Shown here: one piece after another, positions 2,911 to 22,026 of the stretch
How positions within the stretch are numbered: the first letter of the stretch is position 1
Layout of the letters: each line of letters starts with the position of its first letter
Origin: Candidatus Hydrogenedentota bacterium
GTDB lineage: Bacteria; Hydrogenedentota; Hydrogenedentia; Hydrogenedentales; CAITNO01
Assembly: GCA_033813475.1 (NCBI GenBank)
Contig: JAPXRP010000001.1
Coordinates: forward strand, 1 to 59,208
Length of the DNA stretch: 59,208 bases
Direction of reading: 5' to 3'
Program-made: the position numbers and the translations under genes
Notes under the pieces: model-generated
Told to the model about the DNA's origin: nothing
What the model saw: the letters and a program-made list of their open reading frames with translations, nothing else
The model's database searches: none

Positions 2911-4497
2911 ATGATGCGCGGAGTGCTGCACTGGTTTGCGACGGGGCCGGACGCCCCGCCCATCGGCGACATGGCCCGGGTGCGGCAGCTCTACGGGTTC
3001 AAACGCTGGTCCGTGTTTCTCTCCATTCTTCTGGGATACAGCGTCTTCTACGTGTGCCGGCAGTCCTTCGCCATCACCAAGAAGTCCATGCTGGACGAGG
3101 GCATCCTGGACGTCCAGCAGATGGGCAACATCGGCACGGCCCTGCTGATCACCTATGCGGTGGGGAAATTCGTCAACGGCTTTCTCGCGGACCGGGCGAA
3201 TGTGCGGCGCTTCATGGCGACGGGGCTCATGGCGGTGGCGGTGACGGTGGCGCTTTTCGGCGCGAACAAGTACTACGCCCTCTTCTTCCTGCTGTGGGGG
3301 CTCCACGGCTGGTTCCAGTCCATGGGCGCGGTGCCCTCCGGCGTGGCGCTTTCCCAGTGGTTCAGCAACCGGGAGCGCGGCTCGTGGTACAGCTTCTGGA
3401 GCGCCTCCCACAGCATCGGCGAGGGGCTCAGCCTCTTTCTGACCGCCGGGGTGGTCACCTGGCTCGGCTGGCGCTACGGGTTCTGGGCGGCGGCGGCGCT
3501 GGCGGGGGTGGCCGCGCTGGTCATGTACAAGACCCTCTCCGACCGTCCCGAGACCTGCGGCCTGCCCAACGTGGCGGACTACCGGAACGACCACGCCTCG
3601 GACCCGTCGGCGGTTCCGCTGACCACGGCGCAGGCGCAGCGGGAGGTCTTCCGAAACCCCTATGTCTGGATCGTCTGCCTCGCCTCGCTGGCCATGTACA
3701 TCACGCGCTACGGCATGAACAGCTGGGGGGTGCTGTATCTTCAGGAAACCAAAGAATACTCGCTCATGGCCGCCGGCGGCCTGTTGAGCCTGGCCAAAAT
3801 CCTGGAGACCGTGGGCACCGTGGCCTCCGGGTTCATTTCCGACATCTTCTTCAAGTCGCGGCGGTCTGTGATCACCATTGCAAGCTGCGTCTTCATGGTG
3901 GGCGGTCTGGCCCTCTTCGCCATTACCCCGTCAACCGACCTCGGCAGCCTCCCGGGGGACATGCGCCCCCACCTCCACGCGGAGGGCGCCGTGGATCCTG
4001 TCCTGCGGGCGGCGCTTGCGGAGCTGGGCGTTGACACCGACGATGCCACCCGCTTCTCCGTCTCGGGGGACGAGAAGTCCCCGGGATGGGTGCTCCGGTC
4101 CAATTCCTGGTTCTCCGGCTGGGGGGGCTGCCGCGTGGTGGACGCGGGCGACCATCTCCGTGTGTTCAAGAACTACCAGATTCAGCATCTGGTCGGCGCG
4201 TCCATTTACGGCATGGGCATCGGCTGCCTGATTTCCTTTCTGGGCGGGCTGATCGCCATAGACATCTGCTCCAAGAAGGCCAGCGGCGCCGCCATGGGCA
4301 TCGTGGGCATCTTCAGCTACATCGGCGCGACACTCCAGGAGCTGGTGAGCAGCCGCCTGATCCAGGCCGGCATGAGCTCCACGGAGACCGGAGCGGTCAC
4401 CCACGACTTCAGCGGCGCCATGGCCTTCTGGATCGGGTCCGCCGTGGTGTCGCTGGTGCTGTCCTGCTTCCTGTGGAACGCGCGGGCGCGCGACTGA
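2911..4497 (+). CDS. MFS transporter, organophosphate:Pi antiporter (UhpC/GlpT-like) family, with a large extra loop domain
   Basis: ORF 2716..4497. The start is trimmed to ATG 2911, preceded by 'gaaaggcgga'. The N-terminus 'RWSVFLSILLGYSVFYVCRQSFAITKKSM...GKFVNGFLADRANVRRF' aligns by eye with E. coli UhpC. There are multiple hydrophobic helices. Confidence 0.75.
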   Translation: MMRGVLHWFATGPDAPPIGDMARVRQLYGFKRWSVFLSILLGYSVFYVCRQSFAITKKSMLDEGILDVQQMGNIGTALLITYAVGKFVNGFLADRANVRRFMATGLMAVAVTVALFGANKYYALFFLLWGLHGWFQSMGAVPSGVALSQWFSNRERGSWYSFWSASHSIGEGLSLFLTAGVVTWLGWRYGFWAAAALAGVAALVMYKTLSDRPETCGLPNVADYRNDHASDPSAVPLTTAQAQREVFRNPYVWIVCLASLAMYITRYGMNSWGVLYLQETKEYSLMAAGGLLSLAKILETVGTVASGFISDIFFKSRRSVITIASCVFMVGGLALFAITPSTDLGSLPGDMRPHLHAEGAVDPVLRAALAELGVDTDDATRFSVSGDEKSPGWVLRSNSWFSGWGGCRVVDAGDHLRVFKNYQIQHLVGASIYGMGIGCLISFLGGLIAIDICSKKASGAAMGIVGIFSYIGATLQELVSSRLIQAGMSSTETGAVTHDFSGAMAFWIGSAVVSLVLSCFLWNARARD

Positions 4498-4591
4498 GCT
4501 TCGGGAACCGGTGAAACCAGCGCTTGCACACATGTGGTCTGACATGTGACCATTTCGTGCTCTCAGGAAGACACTGCAGGGAGACTCCCCA

Positions 4592-6619
4592 ATGAGAAAC
4601 GGATTTTTGTTCGTTGCGTGGGCTGCCACCGCGGCGGCTGTGGGATGCGGGGCGGCTTTCGCCGCGCCGGGCGCGCTTTCGCTGGACGGCGTCACCGTGG
4701 TGCCGCATCTGATGCTGGACACGATGCGCTACACCAAGGTGCCGGAGCCCGCCGACGGCGCGCGGGTGCAGCTCTTTCTGCGCAACGCCTCGAAGGGGGT
4801 GGTGACCGTGGACGCGGCGTCGCGTCTGCTGTTCGGCGGAAAGGCCCCGGCGGATCTGCTGGCCTCGGAGGACTGGGCGTGGCATGACACGCCCGCCGCG
4901 CAGCAGGTGGGGACGCTGGTCCTCGCGCCGGACACCATGACGGTGTGGACCTTCAACGGCCGCAAGAAGCCCTTTGGTCCCGGCGGAACCTGCACCATGG
5001 CCCTGGGTCCGGAGGACGCCCCCTGGCTGGCGCGGGATATTGAAATCGCCGCGCCGAAACAGTGGATTTCCGCGATCACCTTCCTCGGGCCGGAGGCCGA
5101 CGTCCGCCCCGACACGCTGGTGGTGCACGTTGCCAACGAAGCCGCCGCGCCGCTTGAACTGCGCGGGTGCCGCCTGTGGCTGCCCCTGGACCCGAAGAAC
5201 CCGCGCGTGCTGGCGGCGCAGCCGCCGCTGGCGGAGATCACGCCCTTCAACGGCCACAAGAGCATTCCCACCGGGGACCGTGGCGGGTTCATCGCCCAAA
5301 CAGGCCCGCTCCCCCTGACCTACGCGGTGGTGGAGGTGACCGTGGCCGCAGGCGGCGCCGAGTTTTCGCTCTGGGGCCACCTGCGGGTCCGCAAGGAGGT
5401 CTTCGATATCTCCGGCGGCTGGGTGGGAAGCGATGACGCCCTCAAAAGCGAGGCGTTCCACAAGGCGCTCAAACGGTTCTACGTGAACACGGCGCACATG
5501 GCCTCCGTGCCCGGCTACACGGACACCGAACTGTACGCGAAGTATCCGCTCAAGTACTTCAACTGCCTGGAGCCCGCGCAGTACGACACGGACGAGCTGC
5601 TGCCGCGCATTCACGGCGTGGAGTGCCTGGGCGAGCCGCAGTACGGCGGCGGGCGGCCCGTGCCGCCGCAGGAGGTGTGGGAAAAGCTCTACCCCTACGC
5701 CGCGACGCGCCTGGCCACGACCCTGACAAACAGCGAGGAGCGCATCTGGCGCGACTACGCGGGCCTGAGCGACTTCACGCACTACGACGCCTACCGCGTC
5801 ACCGCGCCGTCGGCGGACGCGTGGTGGAAGTATGACCGCTGGACGGGCGGAAAAATCTACTGGGGATCCCCGCTGGAGACCATCACCGACATGTGCATCT
5901 CCCTGCGCGAGATGACCCGGCCCATGCCCTGCGCGTACTGGTCGCAGGGGCCGCACGAGGGCTGGGGCGTCTACGGCGGCCGCAAGCGCACCTCGCCCAC
6001 CCCCGAGGAGCTGCGCCTCCAGGCGCACCACGCCCTGTCCACCCGCATCACCTCGCTGTACTGGTTCAACCTGAGCCTCAAGACGCTGGTGCAGTGGCGC
6101 GACACGCTGGACGAGCTGGGGCGCGTGGGCCGCGAGATGCGGATGATGGACGACTTCCTGCTGGAGGGCGACGCCTACCGGCACGAACGCGTCAAGAAGG
6201 CGGACGGAAAACTGGACTGGGACCTCAACTCCGTGGCCTGCCCGCGCGGGGCGCTGCTCTTCGCCCTGGACCTCGACTACGACGCCGACCGCAAGGCCCG
6301 CGTGTTCCAGTTCGGCGCGCCCCGGGCCGCCGTGTTCTCCTTCCCGCTGCCCGCGTATCTGGGCGCGCCCGCCGACGTGTTCCGCATGGACGCCGACGGC
6401 GTCCACGATGTCTCCTGGGCGGCAAAGGACGGCGGCGTGGAGATCACCGACACCCGGTCGCTGGTGGGCATTTATGTGGCCGCGCCGGACAAGGAACTCC
6501 GCGGCCGCATGGCGGCGGAACACCAGGCGCTGCTCGCGTATGAGACGGCCCTGAACTTCGACCCGGCCCGCAACGACGCCGACTTCGCCGAACTGGAAAA
6601 CTACCTCGGCGGGAAATAG
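4592..6619 (+). CDS. Exported hypothetical protein (675 aa), no recognisable family
   Basis: Long ORF with protein-like composition and a signal peptide 'MRNGFLFVAWAATAAAVGCGAAFA'. It lies on the same strand between the transporter and the sulfatase. The antisense 704-aa ORF is R/G/P-rich and is rejected. Confidence 0.7.
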   Translation: MRNGFLFVAWAATAAAVGCGAAFAAPGALSLDGVTVVPHLMLDTMRYTKVPEPADGARVQLFLRNASKGVVTVDAASRLLFGGKAPADLLASEDWAWHDTPAAQQVGTLVLAPDTMTVWTFNGRKKPFGPGGTCTMALGPEDAPWLARDIEIAAPKQWISAITFLGPEADVRPDTLVVHVANEAAAPLELRGCRLWLPLDPKNPRVLAAQPPLAEITPFNGHKSIPTGDRGGFIAQTGPLPLTYAVVEVTVAAGGAEFSLWGHLRVRKEVFDISGGWVGSDDALKSEAFHKALKRFYVNTAHMASVPGYTDTELYAKYPLKYFNCLEPAQYDTDELLPRIHGVECLGEPQYGGGRPVPPQEVWEKLYPYAATRLATTLTNSEERIWRDYAGLSDFTHYDAYRVTAPSADAWWKYDRWTGGKIYWGSPLETITDMCISLREMTRPMPCAYWSQGPHEGWGVYGGRKRTSPTPEELRLQAHHALSTRITSLYWFNLSLKTLVQWRDTLDELGRVGREMRMMDDFLLEGDAYRHERVKKADGKLDWDLNSVACPRGALLFALDLDYDADRKARVFQFGAPRAAVFSFPLPAYLGAPADVFRMDADGVHDVSWAAKDGGVEITDTRSLVGIYVAAPDKELRGRMAAEHQALLAYETALNFDPARNDADFAELENYLGGK

Positions 6620-14211: not shown

Positions 14212-14342
14212 CTCTTCCCGCCTCGTACAACACCCCGCCCCGGTATCCCGCACCCCGGGGTTGACGCGGAGCCGGGGCGCTGGCTATAGTGGCGGCGAGG
14301 CGCGGGGCCGGGGATCAGGCGGCCGCGCGAAAGGGAGACCGC

Positions 14343-16661
14343 ATGCGACTCACGGACGCCGAAAAACAGGAAATCCTCCGGTTTATTGAGGCCGGCAAGC
14401 CCCTGCCCGACAAGTACCGCTTCCTCCTCTTCGACGACAAGCGCGAGGTTGAGCTGGTCTGGAACGGAAAGACCGGCGAGGTCTGCAACATCGTCCTCCC
14501 CTTCCAGATCATCGAGCAGGTGGACGAGCCCCGCGCCGAAAAGACCGAGGACGCGCCCCTGCAGGGGATGCTCTTTGACGAGCGGGGACGGCAGCTCAAA
14601 GGCTGGACCAACAAGCTCATCTGGGGCGACAACAAGCTCATCCTCTCCTCCCTCAAGAACGGCCCCCTCCGCGACGAAATCGAGCAGCAGGGCGGCCTCA
14701 AGCTCATCTACATTGACCCGCCCTTCGACGTCGGCGCCGACTTCTCCATGGACATCGAAATCGGCGACGACACCTTTACCAAGAAGCCCAACATCCTGGA
14801 GGAAATCGCCTACCGCGACACCTGGGGCAAAGGGGCAGACTCGTTCATTGCCATGATCTATGAGCGTCTGGTGCTGATGCGGGATCTGTTGGCGGAGGAT
14901 GGGAGTATCTATGTGCATTGCGATTGGAGGGTGAACTCATTCGTTCGCAATTGCCTTGACGAAGTGTTCGGTAAGGACCGGTTAATCAACGAGATAGTCT
15001 GGAAGCGCGCCCACACAGTAAAAGGTAACATCGGACAGGGTAGCAAGCACCTTGGCGCAAATACAGACACAATTTTTCTTTATGCTAGGACTCCGAACTA
15101 TACATTTAATCAGCAGTACATTCCTTATTCTGAAGCCTACGTTGCGCAGTTCTTTCGGTACACGGAGAAAAGTGGGCGACGCTATCGCCTAATCAGCATG
15201 ATTGGCCCCGGAGGCGCGGCGAAAGGGAATCCCACTTATAGCGTTATGGGTGTCACGCGTTCATGGCGATACAGCGAAGCTAAAATGAGGGAGTTAATCG
15301 AAACAGGAATGGTCGTGCAAACGAATCCCGGAACGGTTCCACAGAGAAAACAGTATTTGGATGATGGGGATGGCGTATCCGTGCAATCGCTTTGGGACGA
15401 CATAACAGGCATTGCAGCTTCTTCCTCGGAGCGCGCGAATTACCCCACACAGAAGCCCGAAGCGCTCCTTGAACGCATATTGAAAACATCTTCCAACGAA
15501 GGCGAGCTGGTCGCGGATTTCTTCTGCGGTTCCGGCACAACGGCGGCGGTGGCGGAGAAGCTGGGCCGGAAGTGGATCGCTACGGACCTGGGGAAATTCG
15601 CGATTCACACGACGCGGAAGCGGATGATCGGGGTGCAGCGGGGGCTGAAGGCGTCGGGGAAGGGGTACCGGGCCTTTGAGATTCTGAATCTGGGGAAATA
15701 CGAGCGGCAGCATTATGTGGGGGTGAACCCGAACCTGCGGGAGGAGGAGCAGCGGAAGCAGGCGGAGGCGAAGGAGTCGGCGTTTCTGGACCTGATCCTG
15801 CGGGCGTACCGGGCGGAGCGGGTGGACGGCTTTGCCTGTTTCCACGGGAAGCGGGCGGGGCGGATGGTGTCGGTGGGGCCGGTGAACCTGCCGGTGACGC
15901 GGCTGTTTGTGGAGGAGGTGATTCTGGAGTGCCGCCGGAAGCGGGTCACGAAGGTGGACATCCTGGGTTTTGAGTTCGAGATGGGGCTGTTCCCCAACGT
16001 GCTGGACGAGGCGCGGGGCAAGGGGATAGACATCGCGCCGAAGTACATTCCGGCGGAGGTGTTTGACCGGCGGGCGGTGGAGAAGAACCAGGTGGTCTTC
16101 CACGACGTGTCCTTCATCGAGGTGCGGCCCCATGTGCGCGAGGGGGGCAGGGGAAAGGCCCCGGCGGTGGCGGCGGAGCTGACGGACTTCTCGGTGTTCT
16201 ACTCGCAGGACTCGGTGGCGGCGGCGGAGGCGGCGCTGAAAAACAAGGGCAGCCGGATCGTGGTGGAGAAGGGGCAGATTGTCAAGGTGAGCAGGGACGC
16301 CCGCGGGGTCGTGACGCGGGAGACCCTGACCAAGACCTGGACGGACTGGATAGACTACTGGGCGGTGGACTTCAACTTTGAAAGCAGGCGCGAGCTTATC
16401 CGCGTGGCGCGGCCCATCGCGGCGGGCCAGGGGGCGCTTCCGGGGGCGGAACCCCAGGCGGAGCTGGCGGAGTACGAGGAGGTGTGGACGGGGGACTATG
16501 TGTTTGAGAACGAGTGGCAGAGCTTCCGGACGAAGAAGGACCGGTCGCTGGAGCTGAAAAGCGTCTTCCATGAGTGCGCCCCGGGCCGCCGGAAGATCGC
16601 GGTGAAGGTGGTGGACATCTTCGGCAACGACACGATGACCATCGTGGAGGTGAACGTGTGA
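14343..16661 (+). CDS. mod: Type III R-M-like N6-adenine DNA methyltransferase (Mod), beta-class motif order
   Basis: ORF 14289..16661 is trimmed to ATG 14343. Motif IV 'IYIDPPFDVGADF' lies at 14715-14726. Motif I 'FFCGSGTTAAVAEKLGRKWIATD' lies at 15519 onward. The N-terminus 'KYRFLLFDDKREVELVWNGKTGEV' is typical of type III-like Mod proteins. Confidence 0.9.
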   Translation: MRLTDAEKQEILRFIEAGKPLPDKYRFLLFDDKREVELVWNGKTGEVCNIVLPFQIIEQVDEPRAEKTEDAPLQGMLFDERGRQLKGWTNKLIWGDNKLILSSLKNGPLRDEIEQQGGLKLIYIDPPFDVGADFSMDIEIGDDTFTKKPNILEEIAYRDTWGKGADSFIAMIYERLVLMRDLLAEDGSIYVHCDWRVNSFVRNCLDEVFGKDRLINEIVWKRAHTVKGNIGQGSKHLGANTDTIFLYARTPNYTFNQQYIPYSEAYVAQFFRYTEKSGRRYRLISMIGPGGAAKGNPTYSVMGVTRSWRYSEAKMRELIETGMVVQTNPGTVPQRKQYLDDGDGVSVQSLWDDITGIAASSSERANYPTQKPEALLERILKTSSNEGELVADFFCGSGTTAAVAEKLGRKWIATDLGKFAIHTTRKRMIGVQRGLKASGKGYRAFEILNLGKYERQHYVGVNPNLREEEQRKQAEAKESAFLDLILRAYRAERVDGFACFHGKRAGRMVSVGPVNLPVTRLFVEEVILECRRKRVTKVDILGFEFEMGLFPNVLDEARGKGIDIAPKYIPAEVFDRRAVEKNQVVFHDVSFIEVRPHVREGGRGKAPAVAAELTDFSVFYSQDSVAAAEAALKNKGSRIVVEKGQIVKVSRDARGVVTRETLTKTWTDWIDYWAVDFNFESRRELIRVARPIAAGQGALPGAEPQAELAEYEEVWTGDYVFENEWQSFRTKKDRSLELKSVFHECAPGRRKIAVKVVDIFGNDTMTIVEVNV

Positions 16662-16702
16662 ACAGACCGGACGGCCGACAGACGGGACCGCCCGTCCCGG
16701 CA

Positions 16703-17590
16703 ATGCCCACCTACCTCCGGCAGCGCCTGGTGCTGTTCCTGCTGGAGGCCGCGGGGGGGCGTCTGGGAAAGATGGACCTGCAGAAGCTGCTGTTCCTGCA
16801 CGGCGAGGAGCGGGAGACGCGGGACTACGCCTTCGTGCCCTACCAGTTCGGCTGCTACTCCTTCCAGGCCGCCGCCGACGTGGAGCTACTGGAGGCGTCC
16901 GGCTGGCTGGAGACCGAGGGAAACACCGTGCGCCTCCGCGCCGCGCCGGGCGCCGCGCCCTGGGCCGCCCGGAGCTGGGACCGGCAGGAGGTGCGGGACT
17001 GGCTGGCGGGCCAGCCCCTGCGGGGGGACGGGCTGGTGCGGGAAATCTACACCCGGTACCCCTATTACGCGATTCGCAGCAAAATGAAGGAGCGCGTGCT
17101 TGATCCCGAAACCCTGCGCCGGGTGGAGGATCTGGCCCGGAAGCTAAACCGCCCGGGGACGGTCCTGTTCACCCTGGGGTATGAGGGCATCGCCTTCGAG
17201 GCCTTCGCCAACAAGCTGATTAGGAACGGGGTGCGGCTCCTGTGCGACGTGCGGGCCAACCCGCTGAGCCGGAAGTTCGGCTTCTCCAAGAGGAGCCTGG
17301 AGACCCTTCTTCCCAAGCTGGGCATCCAGTATGCGCATGTTCCGGAACTCGGCATTGCCTCCGAAAACCGGCGGGATCTGGAAACGGAGGAGGACCGCGC
17401 CCGCCTTTTCGTTCAGTATGCGGAGTCGCTCACGGACCGGGAGGAGGGGCTTCGACGGGTGGAGGGGCTGCTGCGCGAGTGGAAACGCGTCGCCCTGGCG
17501 TGCTTCGAGGCGGACCCGGCGCGGTGCCACCGGCACTGCGTTTCCGACGCCCTGGCCGAACGCGGCGGCTACCGGGTGAAACATCTATGA
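16703..17590 (+). CDS. Two-domain protein: N-terminal Panacea/SocA-like or wHTH-like domain plus C-terminal DUF488
   Basis: The C-terminal half 'TLGYEGIAFEAFANKL...LLCDVRANPLSRKFGFSK...LGIQYAHVPELG...ACFEADPARCHRHCV' matches the DUF488 pattern as I remember it. The start is ATG 16703. GTG 16658 is an alternative and would overlap the mod stop (GTGA). Confidence 0.75.
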   Translation: MPTYLRQRLVLFLLEAAGGRLGKMDLQKLLFLHGEERETRDYAFVPYQFGCYSFQAAADVELLEASGWLETEGNTVRLRAAPGAAPWAARSWDRQEVRDWLAGQPLRGDGLVREIYTRYPYYAIRSKMKERVLDPETLRRVEDLARKLNRPGTVLFTLGYEGIAFEAFANKLIRNGVRLLCDVRANPLSRKFGFSKRSLETLLPKLGIQYAHVPELGIASENRRDLETEEDRARLFVQYAESLTDREEGLRRVEGLLREWKRVALACFEADPARCHRHCVSDALAERGGYRVKHL

Positions 17591-18420
17591 GGGAAAGGGT
17601 TCTCATCACCGTCAAGACCTACCCCGTGCTTTCGCGGAAGTACGCGGAGCTGGTCTGCACGGCGGGGGTGACGGAGGCGGGGGAATGGCGGCGGCTTTAC
17701 CCCATCCAGTTCAGGCTGCTCCAGGACGGGCAGAAGTACCATAAGTACCAGTGGGTGGAGGCGGACATTGAGAAGTCCGACACGGACGACCGCCCGGAGT
17801 CCTTTAAGATCGTCGGCGACTCCCTGAGGACGCTCGGGACGCCTCTTCCGGCGGCTCGCCATTGGGCGGACCGGAAACGCGCCTTTTCGGACAAGGTGGA
17901 GTGCCATGAACGCCTGGACCCCCTGTTCGAGCGGGCGCACCGGAACGAGTTGTCCCTGGCGCTGTTCAAGCCCGCGCGCATCCTTCGGTTTGAACCCGAG
18001 GAGACAGAACGGGAGTGGGACCGCGACCGGCTTGACAAGCTGGAGGCGGAAAAACGGCAGCTCCAGCTTTTTGACGACGAGGAGTCCGTGGCCCGCCAGT
18101 TTGAGGTGGTGAGGAAACTCCCCTACAAGTTCTATTGCCGCTTTGAGGACGCGAGCGGCAAATCCAGCCGCCTGATGATCGAGGACTGGGAGATTGGCGT
18201 TTTGTTCTTCAAGTGCCTCGACGAGGCGGGGGGCGATGAAAAGGCCGCCCTCGAGAAGGTCCGGCAGAAGTACTGGACGATGTTTGTCGAAAGCGGACGG
18301 CATGAAATGTGGCTGATTTTGGGAACCGTGCTTGAGCACCACCGCAAGCGCGCCCCAAACCCCTTCGTGATCGTGGGGATTTTCAATCCGCTTCACAACC
18401 CCCAGGGAGAACTGTTCTGA
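17587..18420 (+). CDS. Hypothetical protein (277 aa), no family recognised
   Basis: Its ATG overlaps the upstream stop (ATGA at 17587-17590), and it ends 1 nt before the res ATG. Composition is protein-like ('MRERVLITVKTYPVLSRKYAELVCTAGV...'). I trimmed it from ORF 17242..18420. Confidence 0.7.
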   Translation: MRERVLITVKTYPVLSRKYAELVCTAGVTEAGEWRRLYPIQFRLLQDGQKYHKYQWVEADIEKSDTDDRPESFKIVGDSLRTLGTPLPAARHWADRKRAFSDKVECHERLDPLFERAHRNELSLALFKPARILRFEPEETEREWDRDRLDKLEAEKRQLQLFDDEESVARQFEVVRKLPYKFYCRFEDASGKSSRLMIEDWEIGVLFFKCLDEAGGDEKAALEKVRQKYWTMFVESGRHEMWLILGTVLEHHRKRAPNPFVIVGIFNPLHNPQGELF

Positions 18421-18421
18421 C

Positions 18422-21109
18422 ATGGCGCTTCATCCCGAATTCCCCTCCTCGCCGCACGCGGTGCTGCGGCCGGAAATCCGCTGGTTCCCCGCCGACGAGA
18501 CCCTGCGCGAGACGGGCATGGAAAAGCTCATGCCGCCGCTGGTGCCCATGCTGCGCCGGAAGGTGCGCGATTTCCGGGAGAGCGGATACGCCGGGGCGTC
18601 CGACACAAGCCGCAGCCTGCTTGTCTGGTGGTTTGAGACGCCGCACCTGGTGCCCGGCCCGCAGGGCGCCGACACGGAGTTTGCGTTCTATTTCGCCCAG
18701 CGGGAGGCGCTGGAGACCATTGTCTACCTGCACGATGTTGTCGGCGTCCGGGACAAGCACGACCTGATGCGGTTTGACACGGTGGGCAACGTGTCGGGGG
18801 GGATGTTCGATGAGACCTGGCCCCGTCTGGTGGTCAAGATGGCCACGGGAAGCGGAAAGACAAAGGTGCTCGCCCTGGCCCTGGCGTGGAGCTACTACCA
18901 CCGGCTGTATGAGGCGGACTCCGACCTGTCCCGCAACTTCCTGGTCATCACGCCGAACATCATCGTGCTGGACCGGATTTACAAGGACTTTCAGGGGCTG
19001 CGCATATTCTTCTCAGACCCCGTGATTCCGGACAACGGGGTGGACGGACGAAACTGGCGGGACGATTTCCAGCTCACCCTGCACGTGCAGGACGAGGTGC
19101 GCGTGACACGCCCCACGGGGAACATCTTCCTCACCAACATCCACCGCGTGTATTCGGGGGACGACATCCCCCCGTCCCCCGGGGACGAGGACACGATGGA
19201 CTACTTCCTGGGCCGGCGGCCCACGGGGGGGACCACGGACTCCAAGGTGGACCTGGGGATGATCGTCCGCGACATTGACGAGCTGATGATCCTGAACGAC
19301 GAGGCGCACCACATCCACGACCCCCGCATGGCGTGGTTTAAGTCCATTGAGGACATCCACAACCGCCTCCTGCAGAAGGGGGGCGCCCTTTCGCTGCAAG
19401 TGGACACGACGGCCACGCCCCGGCACAACAACGGGGCCATCTTCGTGCAGACGGTCTGCGACTACCCCCTGGTGGAGGCCATTTCCCAGAACGTTGTCAA
19501 GCATCCGGTGCTTCCGGACGCGGCGAGCCGCGCGAAGCTCCAGGAGTCCCAAAGCGCGAAGTACACGGAGAAATACGCCGACTACATCCACCTGGGGGTG
19601 GTCGAGTGGCGCAAGGCGCACGCCGAGCACGCCAAAATGGGGAAGAAGGCCGTCCTCTTCGTGATGACCGACGACACGCGCAACTGTGACGAGGTGGCGG
19701 AGCATCTGCGGCGCACGTACTCCGAGTTTGAGGACGAGGAATCGGTTCTGGTCATCCACACCAAGAAGAACGGGGACATCTCCGAGTCCGCCTCGGGAAA
19801 GGACAAGGAGGAGCTGGAACGGCTGCGAAAACAGGCCAACGAGATAGACCGCACCGACAGCCCCTACAAGGCCATCGTCTCGGTGCTCATGCTTAAGGAG
19901 GGGTGGGATGTCCGGAACGTCACCACCATCGTCGGGCTGCGCGCCTACGCCGCGCAAAGCAACATCCTGCCGGAGCAGACACTGGGCCGCGGGCTCCGGA
20001 AGATGTATGCGGGCGAAGTGGAGGAGTATGTGAGCGTTGTGGGGACCAACGCCTTCATGGAGTTCGTGGAGTCCATTCAGGCGGAGGGGGTGGTGCTGGA
20101 GCGCCGGGCGATGGGCGAGGGCACGACCGGCGCCGCGCCGCTTGTCATCGAGGTGGACCGCGACAACCCCAAGAAGGACATCGCCGCCCTGGACATCGAG
20201 ATTCCCGTGCTCGCCCCGCGTGTGTACCGGGAGTACGGGAGTCTTTCCGAACTGGACATCTCGCTGGCCCCCGGTGCCAGGGTGCCCGTTCGCGAGTTCA
20301 CCAAGGAGGAGCAGCGGCTCATCGTTTTCCGGGACATCACCACGGGAGAGGAAACGCACCGCACGGTTCTCGAACCCGCCGGGGTTGCGGATTATCGGAG
20401 CGTGATCGCGTATTTCACGCGCGCACTGATGAAGGACCTGCGCCTTTTCAGCGGCTACGACGTGCTGTATGGCAAGGTGAAGGTGTTTGTGCAATCCGGC
20501 CTGTTTGACCGTCCGGTGGACTTGGAGGCTGCGAACACCCTGCGCAACCTGGCCGAACCGGCCGCCGCCAAGACACTCTTCGACACGGTCAAGCAGGCAA
20601 TCAACGCGCTCACCGTCCGGGACATGGGGGGGGCGGAGATACGGGAAACCATCCGCCTGAGCGAAATGAGGCCGTTTGTCGCAAAGAATCAGGGATACCT
20701 TCTCCCGCGACGAAGCATTTTTAACAAAATCATCGGGGACGGCGATCTGGAGCTTCGCTTTGCCGCCTTTCTGGACGATTGCGGGGACATTGTGTCCTTC
20801 GCCAAGAACTACCTCGCCGTCCGCTTCAAGCTGGACTATGTGAAGGCCAACGGGGACATTTCCAACTACTACCCGGACTTCTTCGTCAAGCTTCCCGATG
20901 GCAGGCTGGTGGTGGTGGAAACCAAGGGCCGCGTGGATTTGGACGTTCCCCTCAAGATGGAACGGCTGCGGCAATGGTGCGACGATGTGAATGCGGCCAC
21001 GCCCGCGCATTCCTGCGATTTTATCTACGTGGACGAGGAGAGCTTCTACGCATACAAGCCAACGTCGTTTGGACAGGTCCTGTCCGCGTTTCGCGAGTAC
21101 AAGGGCTGA
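18422..21109 (+). CDS. res: Type III restriction enzyme Res-like SF2 helicase with C-terminal PD-(D/E)xK-like nuclease
   Basis: Walker A 'KMATGSGKTKV' and motif II 'ILNDEAHHI' are present. The helicase C-terminal block includes 'LKEGWDVRNV'. A C-terminal nuclease-like 'NYYPDFFVKLPDGRLVVVETKG' follows. Confidence 0.9.
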   Translation: MALHPEFPSSPHAVLRPEIRWFPADETLRETGMEKLMPPLVPMLRRKVRDFRESGYAGASDTSRSLLVWWFETPHLVPGPQGADTEFAFYFAQREALETIVYLHDVVGVRDKHDLMRFDTVGNVSGGMFDETWPRLVVKMATGSGKTKVLALALAWSYYHRLYEADSDLSRNFLVITPNIIVLDRIYKDFQGLRIFFSDPVIPDNGVDGRNWRDDFQLTLHVQDEVRVTRPTGNIFLTNIHRVYSGDDIPPSPGDEDTMDYFLGRRPTGGTTDSKVDLGMIVRDIDELMILNDEAHHIHDPRMAWFKSIEDIHNRLLQKGGALSLQVDTTATPRHNNGAIFVQTVCDYPLVEAISQNVVKHPVLPDAASRAKLQESQSAKYTEKYADYIHLGVVEWRKAHAEHAKMGKKAVLFVMTDDTRNCDEVAEHLRRTYSEFEDEESVLVIHTKKNGDISESASGKDKEELERLRKQANEIDRTDSPYKAIVSVLMLKEGWDVRNVTTIVGLRAYAAQSNILPEQTLGRGLRKMYAGEVEEYVSVVGTNAFMEFVESIQAEGVVLERRAMGEGTTGAAPLVIEVDRDNPKKDIAALDIEIPVLAPRVYREYGSLSELDISLAPGARVPVREFTKEEQRLIVFRDITTGEETHRTVLEPAGVADYRSVIAYFTRALMKDLRLFSGYDVLYGKVKVFVQSGLFDRPVDLEAANTLRNLAEPAAAKTLFDTVKQAINALTVRDMGGAEIRETIRLSEMRPFVAKNQGYLLPRRSIFNKIIGDGDLELRFAAFLDDCGDIVSFAKNYLAVRFKLDYVKANGDISNYYPDFFVKLPDGRLVVVETKGRVDLDVPLKMERLRQWCDDVNAATPAHSCDFIYVDEESFYAYKPTSFGQVLSAFREYKG

Positions 21110-21141: not shown

Positions 21142-22026
21142 ATGCGCTTTGAGGGCCGGATATACCGTCCGCCGAGCGAGGCGGACAGCGTGCTGATCCA
21201 GTTGACCGTGGGGTGCAGCCACAACCGCTGCGCCTTTTGCGCCATGTACGCGGACAAGAAGTACCGTGTGCGGCCGTTGGAGGAGGTGTTGGAGGATGTG
21301 GACGCGTCGGCGCGGCTGTGGCCCCGGGCGCGGCGGGTGTTTGTGTGCGACGGCGACGCCCTGAGCGCGGGCTATGACACCTTCGCCGCGCTGTGCGGGC
21401 ACATCGTCCGGCGCTTTCCCGCGCTGGAGCGTATCTCCGCGTACACGAACGCCCGGGACATTCTGCGGCTGTCGCCGGAGGAGCTGGCACGGCTCCGGGA
21501 GCTGCGCTTTTCCCTGTGCTATCTCGGGCTGGAGAGCGGGGGCGCGGCGGTGCTGGAGCGCATCCGCAAGGGGGCGACGCCGGAGGACATGGCGGGCATG
21601 GCGGAGAAGACGTGCGCGGCGGGCATGGACCTGTCGGCCATCGTGCTGCTGGGGGCGGGCGGCCGCGCGCTCACGGCGGACCACGTTTCCGGGACCATCG
21701 CCGTCGTCAACCGGATGCGGCCCCGATACCTTTCTTTCCTCACCGCCATGATCGTGCCGCACTCCGCCCTGATGACGTGGACAAAGCAGGGGGAATTTGA
21801 ACCCCTCACGGACCGGGAAATCCTGCGAGAGGCCCGCGACATGCTCGCCGGGCTGGAACTGGACGACACGCTGTTCCGCATGAACCATGTGTCCAACCTC
21901 ATTGCCCTCGGCGGGCGCCTCCCGCGCGACCAAGTCGCGCTGCTCGCGCAGCTAGACGCCCTCCTTCCCCGCGCGGGCGACCAGGTCACCTGCGTCTGCG
22001 ACGAAGACCAGGCGATGTTCCTGTAG
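21142..22026 (+). CDS. Radical SAM protein (about 294 aa, no SPASM-like C-terminal Cys clusters)
   Basis: ORF 20779..22026 is trimmed to ATG 21142. 'IYRPPSEADSVLIQLTVGCSHNRCAFCAMY' contains the CxxxCxxC cluster. It begins 32 nt downstream of res on the same strand. Confidence 0.85.
   Translation: MRFEGRIYRPPSEADSVLIQLTVGCSHNRCAFCAMYADKKYRVRPLEEVLEDVDASARLWPRARRVFVCDGDALSAGYDTFAALCGHIVRRFPALERISAYTNARDILRLSPEELARLRELRFSLCYLGLESGGAAVLERIRKGATPEDMAGMAEKTCAAGMDLSAIVLLGAGGRALTADHVSGTIAVVNRMRPRYLSFLTAMIVPHSALMTWTKQGEFEPLTDREILREARDMLAGLELDDTLFRMNHVSNLIALGGRLPRDQVALLAQLDALLPRAGDQVTCVCDEDQAMFL

What the first reader, a model, noticed from the sequence alone, without database searches (positions are those of the whole stretch)
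17587..18420. Orphan 277-aa protein wedged between the DUF488 gene and res
The ORF has normal codon and amino-acid composition. Both of its ends are coupled to neighbours (ATGA overlap upstream, 1-nt gap downstream), so it is almost certainly expressed with the operon. I cannot find any catalytic or binding motif that I recognise. The sequence starts 'MRERVLITVKTYPVLSRKYAELVCTAGVTEAGEWRRLYPIQFR' and has a charged coiled-coil-like middle 'REWDRDRLDKLEAEKRQLQLFDDEE'. It is the least explained component of the candidate system.
Basis: seen in the sequence. Interest (0 to 1): 0.6.

Follow-up and report, generated by a model that had tools for sequence, protein, structure and literature searches.

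The report
Dual-OB partner of DUF488 enzyme
The 277-residue gene is real but not an orphan: it encodes a double-OB-fold, probably single-stranded-nucleic-acid-binding protein that almost always travels with the neighbouring DUF488 enzyme gene, and this pair is already catalogued, untested, as anti-phage candidate PDC-M19 and here sits as cargo between the mod and res genes of a restriction system.

Summary
The ORF at 17587-18420 (+) is confirmed, including the ATGA overlap upstream and the 1-nt gap before res. It is not an orphan. It matches PADLOC model PDC-M19B over its full length (2e-94) and PHROG 25907. It has about 4,800 homologues, forming about 1,950 clusters at 50% identity, in bacteria, archaea, plasmids and phages. 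Pfam, NCBIfam and PDB sequence searches find nothing.

An AlphaFold model (pLDDT 85) is a tandem OB fold. Its closest folds are RPA, CST and baculovirus LEF-3, which are single-stranded-DNA binders.

A DUF488 gene lies beside it in 78 of 80 species genomes and 12 of 13 viral contigs. The two genes usually overlap by 4 or 1 nt. Only about 10% of pairs lie inside this mod-res system. The same restriction system also exists with an empty slot or with other cargo (KilA-N, PIN, GIY-YIG).

The DUF488 protein here carries an N-terminal domain like Panacea and the DarG antitoxin.

Best reading: the gene is half of an autonomous, toxin-antitoxin-like, nucleic-acid-targeting cassette, not a restriction subunit. 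The biochemical function remains untested. This is a new instance of a catalogued candidate, of moderate interest.

The parts
17587..18420 (+). Gene B: 277-aa dual-OB-fold protein, PADLOC PDC-M19B family. This is the finding.
   Evidence: Translation. PDLC04508 2e-94, full length. PHROG 25907 2e-53. 4,829 homologues. 1,948 clusters at 50% identity. AlphaFold model with pLDDT 84.8 and pTM 0.84.
17590..17835 (+). OB domain 1 (residues about 2-83). It carries the family-wide invariants K10, E21, C24, R36, R43, D67, R69 and E71 on strand 2, strand 3 and the loops between strands 1-2 and 4-5.
   Evidence: Secondary structure of the model. Invariant columns of alignments A1, A3 and A4. Placing the residues on the canonical OB binding face is inference from strand order.
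17956..18384 (+). OB domain 2 (residues about 124-266), with a charged two-helix insert (residues 146-171, 18022-18099) and the invariant D200-W201-E202 motif.
   Evidence: Foldseek matches over about 280-320 columns to the tandem-OB proteins RPA, CST, Teb1 and LEF-3.
16658..17590 (+). Gene A: 310-aa partner, PADLOC PDC-M19A. It has an N-terminal winged-helix plus helical Panacea/DarG-like domain (residues about 20-165, 16715-17152). It has a C-terminal DUF488 domain (residues about 169-309, 17162-17584) with the invariant D197, R199, C282, E284 and C290-H291-R292.
   Evidence: PDLC04505 2e-91. PF04343 6.6e-27 and PF22751 DUF488-N3a. Model pLDDT 95.9. Foldseek to the DarG chain of 7yk3 with probability 1.0, and to the tetrapyrrole-methylase subdomain 3hh1 with probability 0.99. 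Motif alignment to 7yk3_B.
17587..17590 (+). ATGA stop/start overlap between A and B.
   Evidence: The same 4- or 1-nt overlap is found in 44 of 71 homologous loci.
14343..16661 (+). mod, a Type III-like N6/N4 DNA methyltransferase. It is the host operon, not part of the cassette. Its TGA stop overlaps the GTG start of A (GTGA).
   Evidence: PF01555 1e-39. PADLOC MTase_III 7e-112. Junction sequence.
18422..21109 (+). res, a Type III-like helicase-nuclease related to the BPTD_3080 family. It is the host operon and starts 1 nt after the stop of B.
   Evidence: PF04851 3.5e-12. REase_III 4e-18. NF046055 5.7e-66, below its cutoff.

Best explanation
The ORF encodes the dual-OB-fold half (PDC-M19B) of a self-contained, horizontally mobile two-gene cassette. 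The other half is the upstream DUF488 protein (PDC-M19A). The cassette has landed in the cargo slot between mod and res of a Type III-like restriction-modification operon. It is co-transcribed and translationally coupled there, but it is not a restriction subunit.

Most likely mechanism (inferred):
- B engages single-stranded nucleic acid or DNA ends. It does so through a conserved charged pocket formed by OB1 (E21, C24, R36, D67, R69, E71) and the D200-W201-E202 motif of OB2.
- A binds and controls B through its Panacea/DarG-C-like N-terminal domain.
- The DUF488 domain of A, a Rossmann-like phosphatase/phosphotransferase-type fold, acts on the same nucleic-acid substrate.
- Together they form a toxin-antitoxin-like or abortive anti-phage module.

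Shown here: the gene is real, the family is identified, the tandem-OB fold is predicted, the pairing with DUF488 is near-obligate, the pair is independent of the RM, and it occurs on mobile elements.

Inferred only: nucleic-acid binding, A-B contact, the enzymatic step and a defence role.
For: Family:
- Full-length PADLOC PDC-M19B and PDC-M19A matches.
- PDC-M19 is cassette CAS_00089 (174 instances), one of the 145 untested 'guilt-by-embedding' candidates of Payne et al., bioRxiv 10.1101/2024.01.29.577857.

Fold:
- The model has pLDDT 84.8.
- Foldseek finds the RPA-ssDNA filament 8oej (E 2e-5, probability 0.97), CST 6w6w, Teb1, RADX, POT1 and SSBs.
- It also finds baculovirus LEF-3 (E 3e-5, probability 1.0).
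- The only recurrent Pfam hit is DuOB, below threshold.

Partnership:
- DUF488 lies directly beside B in 78/80 genome loci and 12/13 viral loci.
- The two genes overlap by 4 or 1 nt in 44/71 loci.

Independence from the RM:
- mod and res flank the pair in only about 8-10 of 80 loci.
- The relative P0006 (67% identity) sits between YCII and PQQ genes.
- P0092 sits in a DUF3644-A-B-Fic islet.
- The same RM occurs with an empty slot (L107) and with KilA-N, DUF4325+PIN, HATPase+PIN, DUF4411 or GIY-YIG cargo.

Mobility:
- B is found on 23 plasmids and in 7 Gordonia temperate phages, in the immunity region.

Toxin-antitoxin-like architecture:
- The N-terminal domain of A matches the DarG chain of the DarT-DarG complex (Foldseek probability 1.0).
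- 4/57 A homologues give sub-threshold SocA_Panacea hits.
- B is truncated or frameshifted with the DUF488 domain intact in 10 loci; the reverse is seen in none clearly.
Against: - No biochemical or phage-challenge data exist for any member. PDC-M19 is explicitly untested.
- Whole-chain TM-scores to RPA and LEF-3 are low (0.2-0.4), so the match rests on fold type, not on a specific homologue.
- There is no sequence-level link to any SSB family.
- The invariant residues are acidic residues and Cys as well as Arg, not the aromatic and basic set typical of passive ssDNA binders. This fits a catalytic or metal site at least as well.
- The Panacea-like domain is absent from A in the alphaproteobacterial and archaeal branches, so it cannot be essential to the core mechanism.
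- Immediate neighbours of the pair are mixed (ThiC, ClpB as well as RM genes), so defence-island enrichment is modest.
Confidence: 0.55

Rival explanations
1. B is the toxic, enzymatic effector and A is a dual-mode antidote, by analogy with DarT-DarG. B would be an OB-fold enzyme that cuts or modifies ssDNA or RNA using the C24/D67/R69/E71/D200/E202 pocket. The Panacea-like domain of A sequesters B, and the DUF488 domain of A reverses or pre-empts B's product.
For: - The invariant C/D/E/R constellation is conserved across very distant branches.
- The antitoxin-like N-terminal domain of A matches DarG from the DarTG complex, with sub-threshold Panacea hits.
- The gene order is antitoxin-first, with translational coupling.
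- Decay is asymmetric: B is broken and A is intact in 10 loci, against about 0 the other way.
- The Panacea paper shows that such domains neutralise many unrelated adjacent toxins by direct binding (PMC8832971).
Against: - No nuclease or transferase fold or motif is detected in B. The top 50 Foldseek hits are binders (RPA, CST, LEF-3, SSB, S12), not staphylococcal-nuclease-type enzymes.
- In many branches A has no Panacea domain.
- In plasmid pRL8 and in the Gordonia phages the two genes are convergent, which is unusual for a toxin-antitoxin pair.
- The decay asymmetry comes from metagenome-assembled genomes, which may contain assembly errors.
Confidence: 0.25
2. B is a dedicated accessory subunit of the Type III-like restriction enzyme, for example one that loads Res on DNA or modulates Mod. 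This is what the first reader's 'candidate system' implied.
For: - B is translationally coupled on both sides within mod-A-B-res.
- The same four-gene arrangement recurs in L001, L022 and L089/L104, and with extra genes in L006, L010 and L012.
Against: - About 90% of A-B pairs have no such mod or res nearby.
- The RM family functions as a plain mod-res pair with a 13-nt spacer in L107, and carries unrelated cargo in the same slot.
- The junction architecture (4-nt overlap with mod, 1-nt gap to res) is kept with a KilA-N cargo gene in L106. It therefore belongs to the slot, not to B.
Confidence: 0.05
3. B is a replication or recombination SSB-like protein of mobile elements. Together with DUF488 it would serve DNA-end processing or repair for the element itself, not host defence.
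For: - The closest folds are replication ssDNA binders (RPA, LEF-3).
- B occurs on conjugative plasmids and phages.
- From my own memory, not verifiable here: Burroughs & Aravind 2023 predicted DNA-end processing for the DUF488 clade.
Against: - In the Gordonia phages the pair sits in the lysogeny/immunity region beside the repressor and integrase, not among replication genes.
- Most copies are chromosomal islets without replication genes.
- The pair is embedded in RM, BREX or Hma-type systems often enough to have been picked up by guilt-by-embedding.
Confidence: 0.1
4. This is not a real gene: a chance ORF in a 68% G+C genome, or the antisense 284-aa ORF is the real one.
For: Long ORFs occur in several frames here, including 17569-18423 on the minus strand.
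Against: - There are thousands of full-length protein homologues with 60 invariant columns among 38 relatives.
- The GC3 pattern fits the + frame.
- The structure prediction is confident.
Confidence: 0.01

Closest known systems
PADLOC-DB v2 phage defence candidate PDC-M19 (genes M19A + M19B; Payne, Hughes, Fineran & Jackson, bioRxiv 10.1101/2024.01.29.577857)
   Same: Both window proteins match the M19A and M19B models over their full length (2e-91 and 2e-94). The gene order A>>B is the same. Like the founding examples, the pair is embedded inside another defence system.
   Different: The catalogue entry is only a name. No activity, fold or mechanism is given, and it was never tested. The founding screen used BREX, DISARM and Type I RM. 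Here the host is a Type III-like mod-res operon.
Pfam PF22557 DuOB (Dual OB-containing domain)
   Same: Both have a predicted tandem-OB architecture. DuOB is the only Pfam family that recurs among weak hits of the B family: 2/95, 3/58, L075 at E 0.012 and phage Nymphadora gp43 at E 0.0021.
   Different: The window protein itself gives no hit. The best relatives reach 16-18.6 bits against a gathering score of 27. This is at most a remote relative, not a member by Pfam's criterion.
Eukaryotic/archaeal RPA, the CST complex and baculovirus LEF-3 (tandem-OB ssDNA-binding proteins)
   Same: Best structural matches: Foldseek probability 0.96-1.0 over about 280-320 aligned columns.
   Different: - There is no sequence similarity (7-11% identity), and whole-chain TM-scores are low (0.2-0.4).
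- B has a helical insert in OB2.
- B has an invariant Cys/Asp/Glu/Arg pocket that those binders lack.
- B is always paired with a DUF488 enzyme.
DarT-DarG and PanA-PanT (Panacea) toxin-antitoxin systems
   Same: The partner protein A has an N-terminal domain that matches the DarG chain of the M. tuberculosis DarTG complex. The match is structural (probability 1.0) and covers the 'QKLxY...F.P..YGPYS' motif. That domain is joined to an enzymatic domain, as in DarG (toxin-binding domain plus macrodomain). The putative antidote gene comes first and overlaps the next gene.
   Different: - The enzymatic domain is DUF488, not a macrodomain, and the domain order is reversed.
- B is an OB-fold protein, not an ADP-ribosyltransferase.
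- Panacea membership is sub-threshold (best E 0.012).
- Toxicity of B is untested.

Membership tests
PADLOC PDC-M19 (component B) | Match to a PDC-M19B profile HMM | tested here: met
   PDLC04508 at E 2e-94, residues 2-277 on profile positions 3-269 of 269. Also PDLC04506 and PDLC04507.
PADLOC PDC-M19 (component B) | Adjacent PDC-M19A (DUF488) gene on the same strand | tested here: met
   The upstream gene matches PDLC04505 at 2e-91, with an ATGA overlap. The pairing holds in 78/80 genome loci.
PADLOC PDC-M19 (component B) | Anti-phage activity | not testable with these tools
   The source paper lists the PDCs as untested candidates. No paper in the library mentions PDC-M19.
Pfam DuOB (PF22557) | Score at or above the gathering threshold (27 bits) | tested here: not met
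   P0001 gives no hit at E<=1. The best scores among relatives are 16-18.6 bits.
Pfam DuOB (PF22557) | Two consecutive OB folds | tested here: met
   The AlphaFold model has two five-strand barrel-type units. Foldseek matches tandem-OB proteins.
SSB/RPA-type ssDNA-binding proteins | Sequence membership in a known SSB or RPA family | tested here: not met
   No Pfam or NCBIfam hit. No PDB sequence hit, even with a 95-sequence profile at E<=10.
SSB/RPA-type ssDNA-binding proteins | Binding of single-stranded DNA | not testable with these tools
   Inferred only from fold similarity.
Type III restriction-modification system (as an extra subunit) | Consistent co-occurrence with mod and res | tested here: not met
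   mod and res flank the pair in about 8-10 of 80 loci. The RM exists with an empty slot (L107) and with other cargo.
Panacea-type (PanAT) or DarTG-like toxin-antitoxin pair, with B as toxin | Neighbouring antitoxin carries a Panacea (PF13274) domain | tested here: inconclusive
   The window's A gives no PF13274 hit. 4/57 homologues hit below threshold, best E 0.012. The structural match to the DarG chain of 7yk3 has probability 1.0 and TM 0.48. The motif alignment has E 0.088.
Panacea-type (PanAT) or DarTG-like toxin-antitoxin pair, with B as toxin | Toxin is growth-inhibitory and is neutralised by the antitoxin | not testable with these tools
   There is only indirect evidence. B is degraded with the DUF488 domain of A intact in 10 loci, against about 0 the other way.

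The most novel reading that the evidence does not exclude
B is not a passive DNA binder. It would be a new kind of OB-fold enzyme or toxin that modifies or cleaves single-stranded nucleic acid at a composite Cys/Asp/Glu/Arg pocket between its two OB domains. The DUF488 protein would be its DarG-like dual antidote: a Panacea-like clamp plus an enzymatic reversal domain. PDC-M19 would then be a reversible nucleic-acid-modification immunity or addiction system built from folds not previously seen in that role.
Probability: 0.2. Interest if true: 0.8.

Novelty: new member of a known kind. Interest (0 to 1): 0.35.

Why it matters
The B family is very large: about 1,950 clusters at 50% identity, across bacteria, archaea, plasmids and phages. 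It has no Pfam model and no experimental data. DUF488 is one of the older unsolved domains of unknown function.

This instance adds three usable facts:
- a confident tandem-OB model for B, with a defined set of invariant residues to mutate;
- a Panacea/DarG-like antitoxin-type domain on the DUF488 partner;
- a natural series of the same restriction operon with an empty slot, with this cassette and with other cargo. This series is a ready-made design for testing whether embedded cassettes act alone or together with the host system.

It does not reveal a new kind of system. The pair is already catalogued as PDC-M19.

Tried and rejected
- Pfam and NCBIfam scans of B found nothing. A Pfam scan of 95 and 58 diverse members gave only sub-threshold DuOB hits.
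- PDB sequence searches found nothing, with the single protein and with a 95-sequence profile at E<=10.
- Literature searches for 'PDC-M19', 'DUF488-N3' and 'DuOB' gave nothing relevant. The 33 papers that mention DUF488 give no function.
- The Burroughs & Aravind 2023 paper on the rhodanese-phosphatase superfamily, which I recall as defining the RapZ-C/DUF488/DUF4326 clade, is not held. Statements about it rest on memory only.
- RNA evidence: no useful metatranscriptome holds the gene. One RNA run shares 5% of words, so transcription is not shown.
- I first read the Gordonia phage repressor gp44 as replacing DUF488 (hhalign probability 0.1). I corrected this: the DUF488 gene is gp42, convergent with gp43 and mis-annotated as 'HipA toxin'.
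- The RM-subunit reading was rejected on co-occurrence.
- The antisense-ORF reading was rejected on GC3 and homology.
Full report
OBSERVATION. The ATG is at 17587 and the TGA at 18418-18420. It encodes 277 aa beginning MRERVLITVKTYPVLSRKYAELVCTAGV. The upstream gene ends at 17590 (ATGA overlap). The res ATG is at 18422 (1-nt gap). The upstream gene itself most likely starts at the GTG at 16658, which overlaps the mod stop (GTGA). So all four genes, mod-A-B-res, are coupled.

In this 68% G+C window long ORFs occur in several frames, including a 284-aa antisense ORF at 17569-18423. The + frame has the coding signature: GC1/2/3 = 0.63/0.38/0.82. It also has thousands of full-length homologues. 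A sigma-70-like site lies before mod (14261-14290). No convincing terminator lies between mod and res; terminator-like hits are below the shuffled expectation.

NOT AN ORPHAN. Pfam and NCBIfam give nothing. PADLOC's PDC-M19B model matches end to end (E 2e-94), and the upstream protein matches PDC-M19A (2e-91). PHROGs has both as families of unknown function. The word-indexed search finds 4,829 homologues, nearly all 250-290 aa and all 'hypothetical'. The exhaustive search of 50%-identity representatives finds 1,948 clusters at E<=1e-3 and 1,105 at E<=1e-10.

PDC-M19 is cassette CAS_00089 (two families, 174 RefSeq instances). [quoted passage not shown] No paper in the library mentions PDC-M19 in its text.

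WHAT THE PROTEIN IS. An AlphaFold2 model built on 38 homologues is confident (pLDDT 84.8, pTM 0.84). It shows two barrel-type strand sets:
- residues about 2-83;
- residues about 124-266, which carry a charged two-helix insert at 146-171.

Foldseek against the PDB returns tandem-OB single-stranded-DNA binders first:
- the RPA-ssDNA filament 8oej (E 2e-5, probability 0.97);
- CST 6w6w (3e-4);
- Teb1, RADX and POT1;
- then single OB domains such as SSB, Rim1, ribosomal S12 and LysRS.

Against predicted viral structures the top hits are baculovirus LEF-3 ssDNA-binding proteins (E 3e-5, probability 1.0). Whole-chain TM-scores are low (0.2-0.4), so this identifies the fold class, not a specific homologue. 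Sequence searches of the PDB find nothing, even with a 95-sequence profile.

The only Pfam family that recurs among weak hits of family members is PF22557 DuOB, 'Dual OB-containing domain'. It hits 2/95 and 3/58 members, L075 at E 0.012, and Gordonia phage gp43 at E 0.0021 with 18.6 bits. All are below the 27-bit gathering score.

CONSERVED RESIDUES. Across 95 diverse representatives, C24, R36, D67, R69 and W201 are invariant. K10, P13, S16, E21, T25-A26-G27, G32, P39, R43, K53, E71, S72, W93, R96, D200 and E202 are at least 90% conserved. The window protein has all of them.

A distant alphaproteobacterial branch is unambiguously homologous (28-33% identity; hhalign probability 100, E 1.6e-52). 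It keeps the same set. It adds a second Cys next to C24, and a His and a Cys just before the DWE motif. I read this, by inference, as those two segments lying together in space.

By strand order, the OB1 invariants sit on strand 2, strand 3 and the loops between strands 1-2 and 4-5. That is the canonical OB ligand face. The mix of Cys, Asp, Glu and Arg is not what a passive ssDNA binder needs. This leaves room for a metal or catalytic site.

THE CONSTANT PARTNER IS DUF488, NOT MOD/RES. In 80 species-representative genomes that carry a B homologue, a DUF488 gene lies directly beside it in 78. These genomes span Verrucomicrobiota, Desulfobacterota, Firmicutes, Spirochaetes, Chloroflexi, Caulobacterales and DPANN archaea. 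One of the two exceptions is cut by a contig end, and in one the gene order is reversed. In 12 of 13 IMG/VR viral contigs the same holds. The stop of A overlaps the start of B by 4 or 1 nt in 44 of 71 scorable loci, and 14 more have gaps of 30 nt or less.

Homologues of this window's mod and res flank the pair in only about 8-10 of the 80 loci: L001, L002, L004, L006, L010, L012 and L022; L011 rearranged; L025 with a different Res. A 67%-identical relative sits as A-B alone between YCII and PQQ-repeat genes. A 57%-identical one sits in a DUF3644-A-B-Fic islet inside a menaquinone/sugar locus.

Among 83 immediate neighbours in the non-RM loci, restriction and helicase-nuclease families recur: ResIII 4, SWI2/SNF2 3, Type I S subunit 3, HsdR 2, MmeI 1 and PD-(D/E)XK 2. 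Housekeeping genes recur too: ThiC 3 and ClpB 2.

B is also on 23 plasmids, including Rhizobium pRL8 and Sulfolobus plasmids. It is also in seven Gordonia temperate phages. In phage Nymphadora, gp43 (B; hhalign probability 100) overlaps the end of the immunity repressor gene. It lies between cro and the integrase. It is convergent with gp42, which is annotated 'HipA toxin' but is a DUF488 protein (tblastn 4e-19).

THE MOD-RES SLOT IS A CARGO SITE. The same RM family is found in several states:
- with mod and res separated by 13 nt (L107);
- with a single KilA-N gene in the slot, which keeps the same junctions, a 4-nt overlap with mod and a 1-nt gap to res (L106);
- with DUF4325+PIN (L105);
- with HATPase_c+PIN in addition to A-B (L011, L012);
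- with a DUF4411 pair plus A-B (L006);
- with A-B plus a GIY-YIG gene (L010).

An IMG/VR contig carries the identical mod-A-B-res arrangement (L089/L104). In the window, mod, B and res have a lower G+C (0.60-0.63) than the 0.68 average. All this says that A-B is optional cargo and that the tight coupling belongs to the slot.

THE PARTNER PROTEIN. The model of A is very confident (pLDDT 95.9). All 57 homologues tested match DUF488 and its 'active N3' subclade model. D197, R199, C282, E284 and C290-H291-R292 are invariant. Structurally the DUF488 domain resembles the N-terminal subdomain of tetrapyrrole-type methylases (3hh1, probability 0.99).

The N-terminal domain (about residues 20-165) is a winged helix plus helices. 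It matches the DarG chain of the M. tuberculosis DarT-DarG complex (7yk3, probability 1.0/0.99, TM 0.48). A profile search aligns 'dlqKLlfl...YdFvPYkYGcYS' with DarG's 'eiQKLMYF...LDFTPGRYGPYS' (E 0.088). Four of 57 homologues hit PF13274 SocA_Panacea below threshold (best E 0.012).

This partly bears out the neighbouring first-stage note that suspected a Panacea-DUF488 fusion. Panacea domains neutralise many unrelated adjacent toxins by direct binding (PMC8832971). The domain is missing from A in the alphaproteobacterial and some archaeal branches, so it is an accessory to a DUF488+B core.

DECAY PATTERN. Among 93 loci, B is truncated or frameshifted while the DUF488 domain is intact in 10. 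Apparent 'truncations' of A are only alignments that stop at 85-87% coverage. No locus clearly has a broken A with an intact B. In most of the ten, the whole A ORF is also of normal length.

If damage were proportional to length, this asymmetry would be unlikely (roughly p of about 0.01). That estimate is my own arithmetic on small numbers from metagenome-assembled genomes. The pattern is what one expects if B is the costly partner.

MECHANISM. Several things are shown here:
- the gene is real;
- it belongs to PDC-M19B;
- it is predicted to be a tandem-OB protein;
- it is near-obligately paired and translationally coupled with a DUF488 enzyme;
- the pair is independent of, but embedded in, an RM operon;
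- the pair occurs on mobile elements.

The rest is inferred. B engages single-stranded nucleic acid or DNA ends through the OB1/OB2 pocket. A holds B through its Panacea/DarG-like domain. DUF488 acts on the same substrate. The module is toxin-antitoxin-like or abortive in character.

I give the whole statement 0.55, and its identity part about 0.9. The main rival (0.25) is that B is itself the enzymatic toxin and A a DarG-like dual antidote. A role as an RM subunit gets 0.05, a role as a mobile-element SSB or repair factor 0.1, and a non-gene 0.01.

NOVELTY AND SCORE. The pair is already catalogued, and other windows of this scan have reached the same identification. Those are AI notes. I treated them as leads and re-derived the points above independently. 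The new elements are modest:
- a Type III-like host operon with a demonstrable empty-slot and alternative-cargo series;
- the Panacea/DarG-like domain on A;
- the residue set;
- the decay asymmetry.

Verdict: a new member of a known, uncharacterised kind. Interest 0.35.

Noticed in passing
window 16658-18424; L105, L106, L107, L006, L010, L011, L012: The gap between mod and res of this RM family is a cargo hotspot. It is empty in L107 (13 nt). It holds KilA-N in L106 and DUF4325+PIN in L105. It holds HATPase_c+PIN plus A-B in L011 and L012, DUF4411 plus A-B in L006, and A-B plus GIY-YIG in L010. The junction style (4-nt overlap with the mod stop, 1-nt gap before the res ATG) is kept with different cargo.
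   Followed up: partly
window 21142-22026: A 294-aa radical SAM gene starts 32 nt after res on the same strand (PF04055 2e-14). Relatives with the same RM do not have it there: L022 has a SEC-C/DUF7309/DUF6930 protein and L006 a 149-aa ORF. It is probably not part of the RM or the cassette.
   Followed up: partly
L087 (Gordonia phage Nymphadora NC_031061.1) 3474-4771: gp42, annotated 'HipA toxin', is a DUF488 protein (tblastn 4e-19 to the window's DUF488 domain). gp43, annotated 'hypothetical', is a B-family member. The pair sits in the lysogeny region next to the immunity repressor, as is typical of prophage-encoded defence genes.
   Followed up: partly
L098 4855-5211: In the one viral contig where B has no DUF488 neighbour, the gene just downstream encodes a 118-aa protein with the motif 'WGNPF...LACWCrqgsPCHGDVL'. 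I recall this motif as DUF4326-like, a sister family of DUF488. hhalign aligns only the C..CH motif (probability 0.4).
   Followed up: partly
window 14343-21109: mod, B and res have a G+C of 0.60-0.63 against 0.68 for the window, while A is at 0.68. This fits a horizontally acquired island. Runs holding the sequence are anaerobic-digester and wastewater metagenomes.
   Followed up: no
L089 / L104 (IMGVR_UViG_3300025327_001678): A predicted viral contig carries the same four-gene mod-A-B-res arrangement, with 73-75% identity for mod and res and 50% for B. The whole composite may therefore move on a phage or prophage.
   Followed up: no
L018, L024, L044, L045, L046, L049, L052, L062, L064, L101: In these loci B is truncated or frameshifted while the adjacent DUF488 domain is intact. 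The opposite pattern was not seen.
   Followed up: partly
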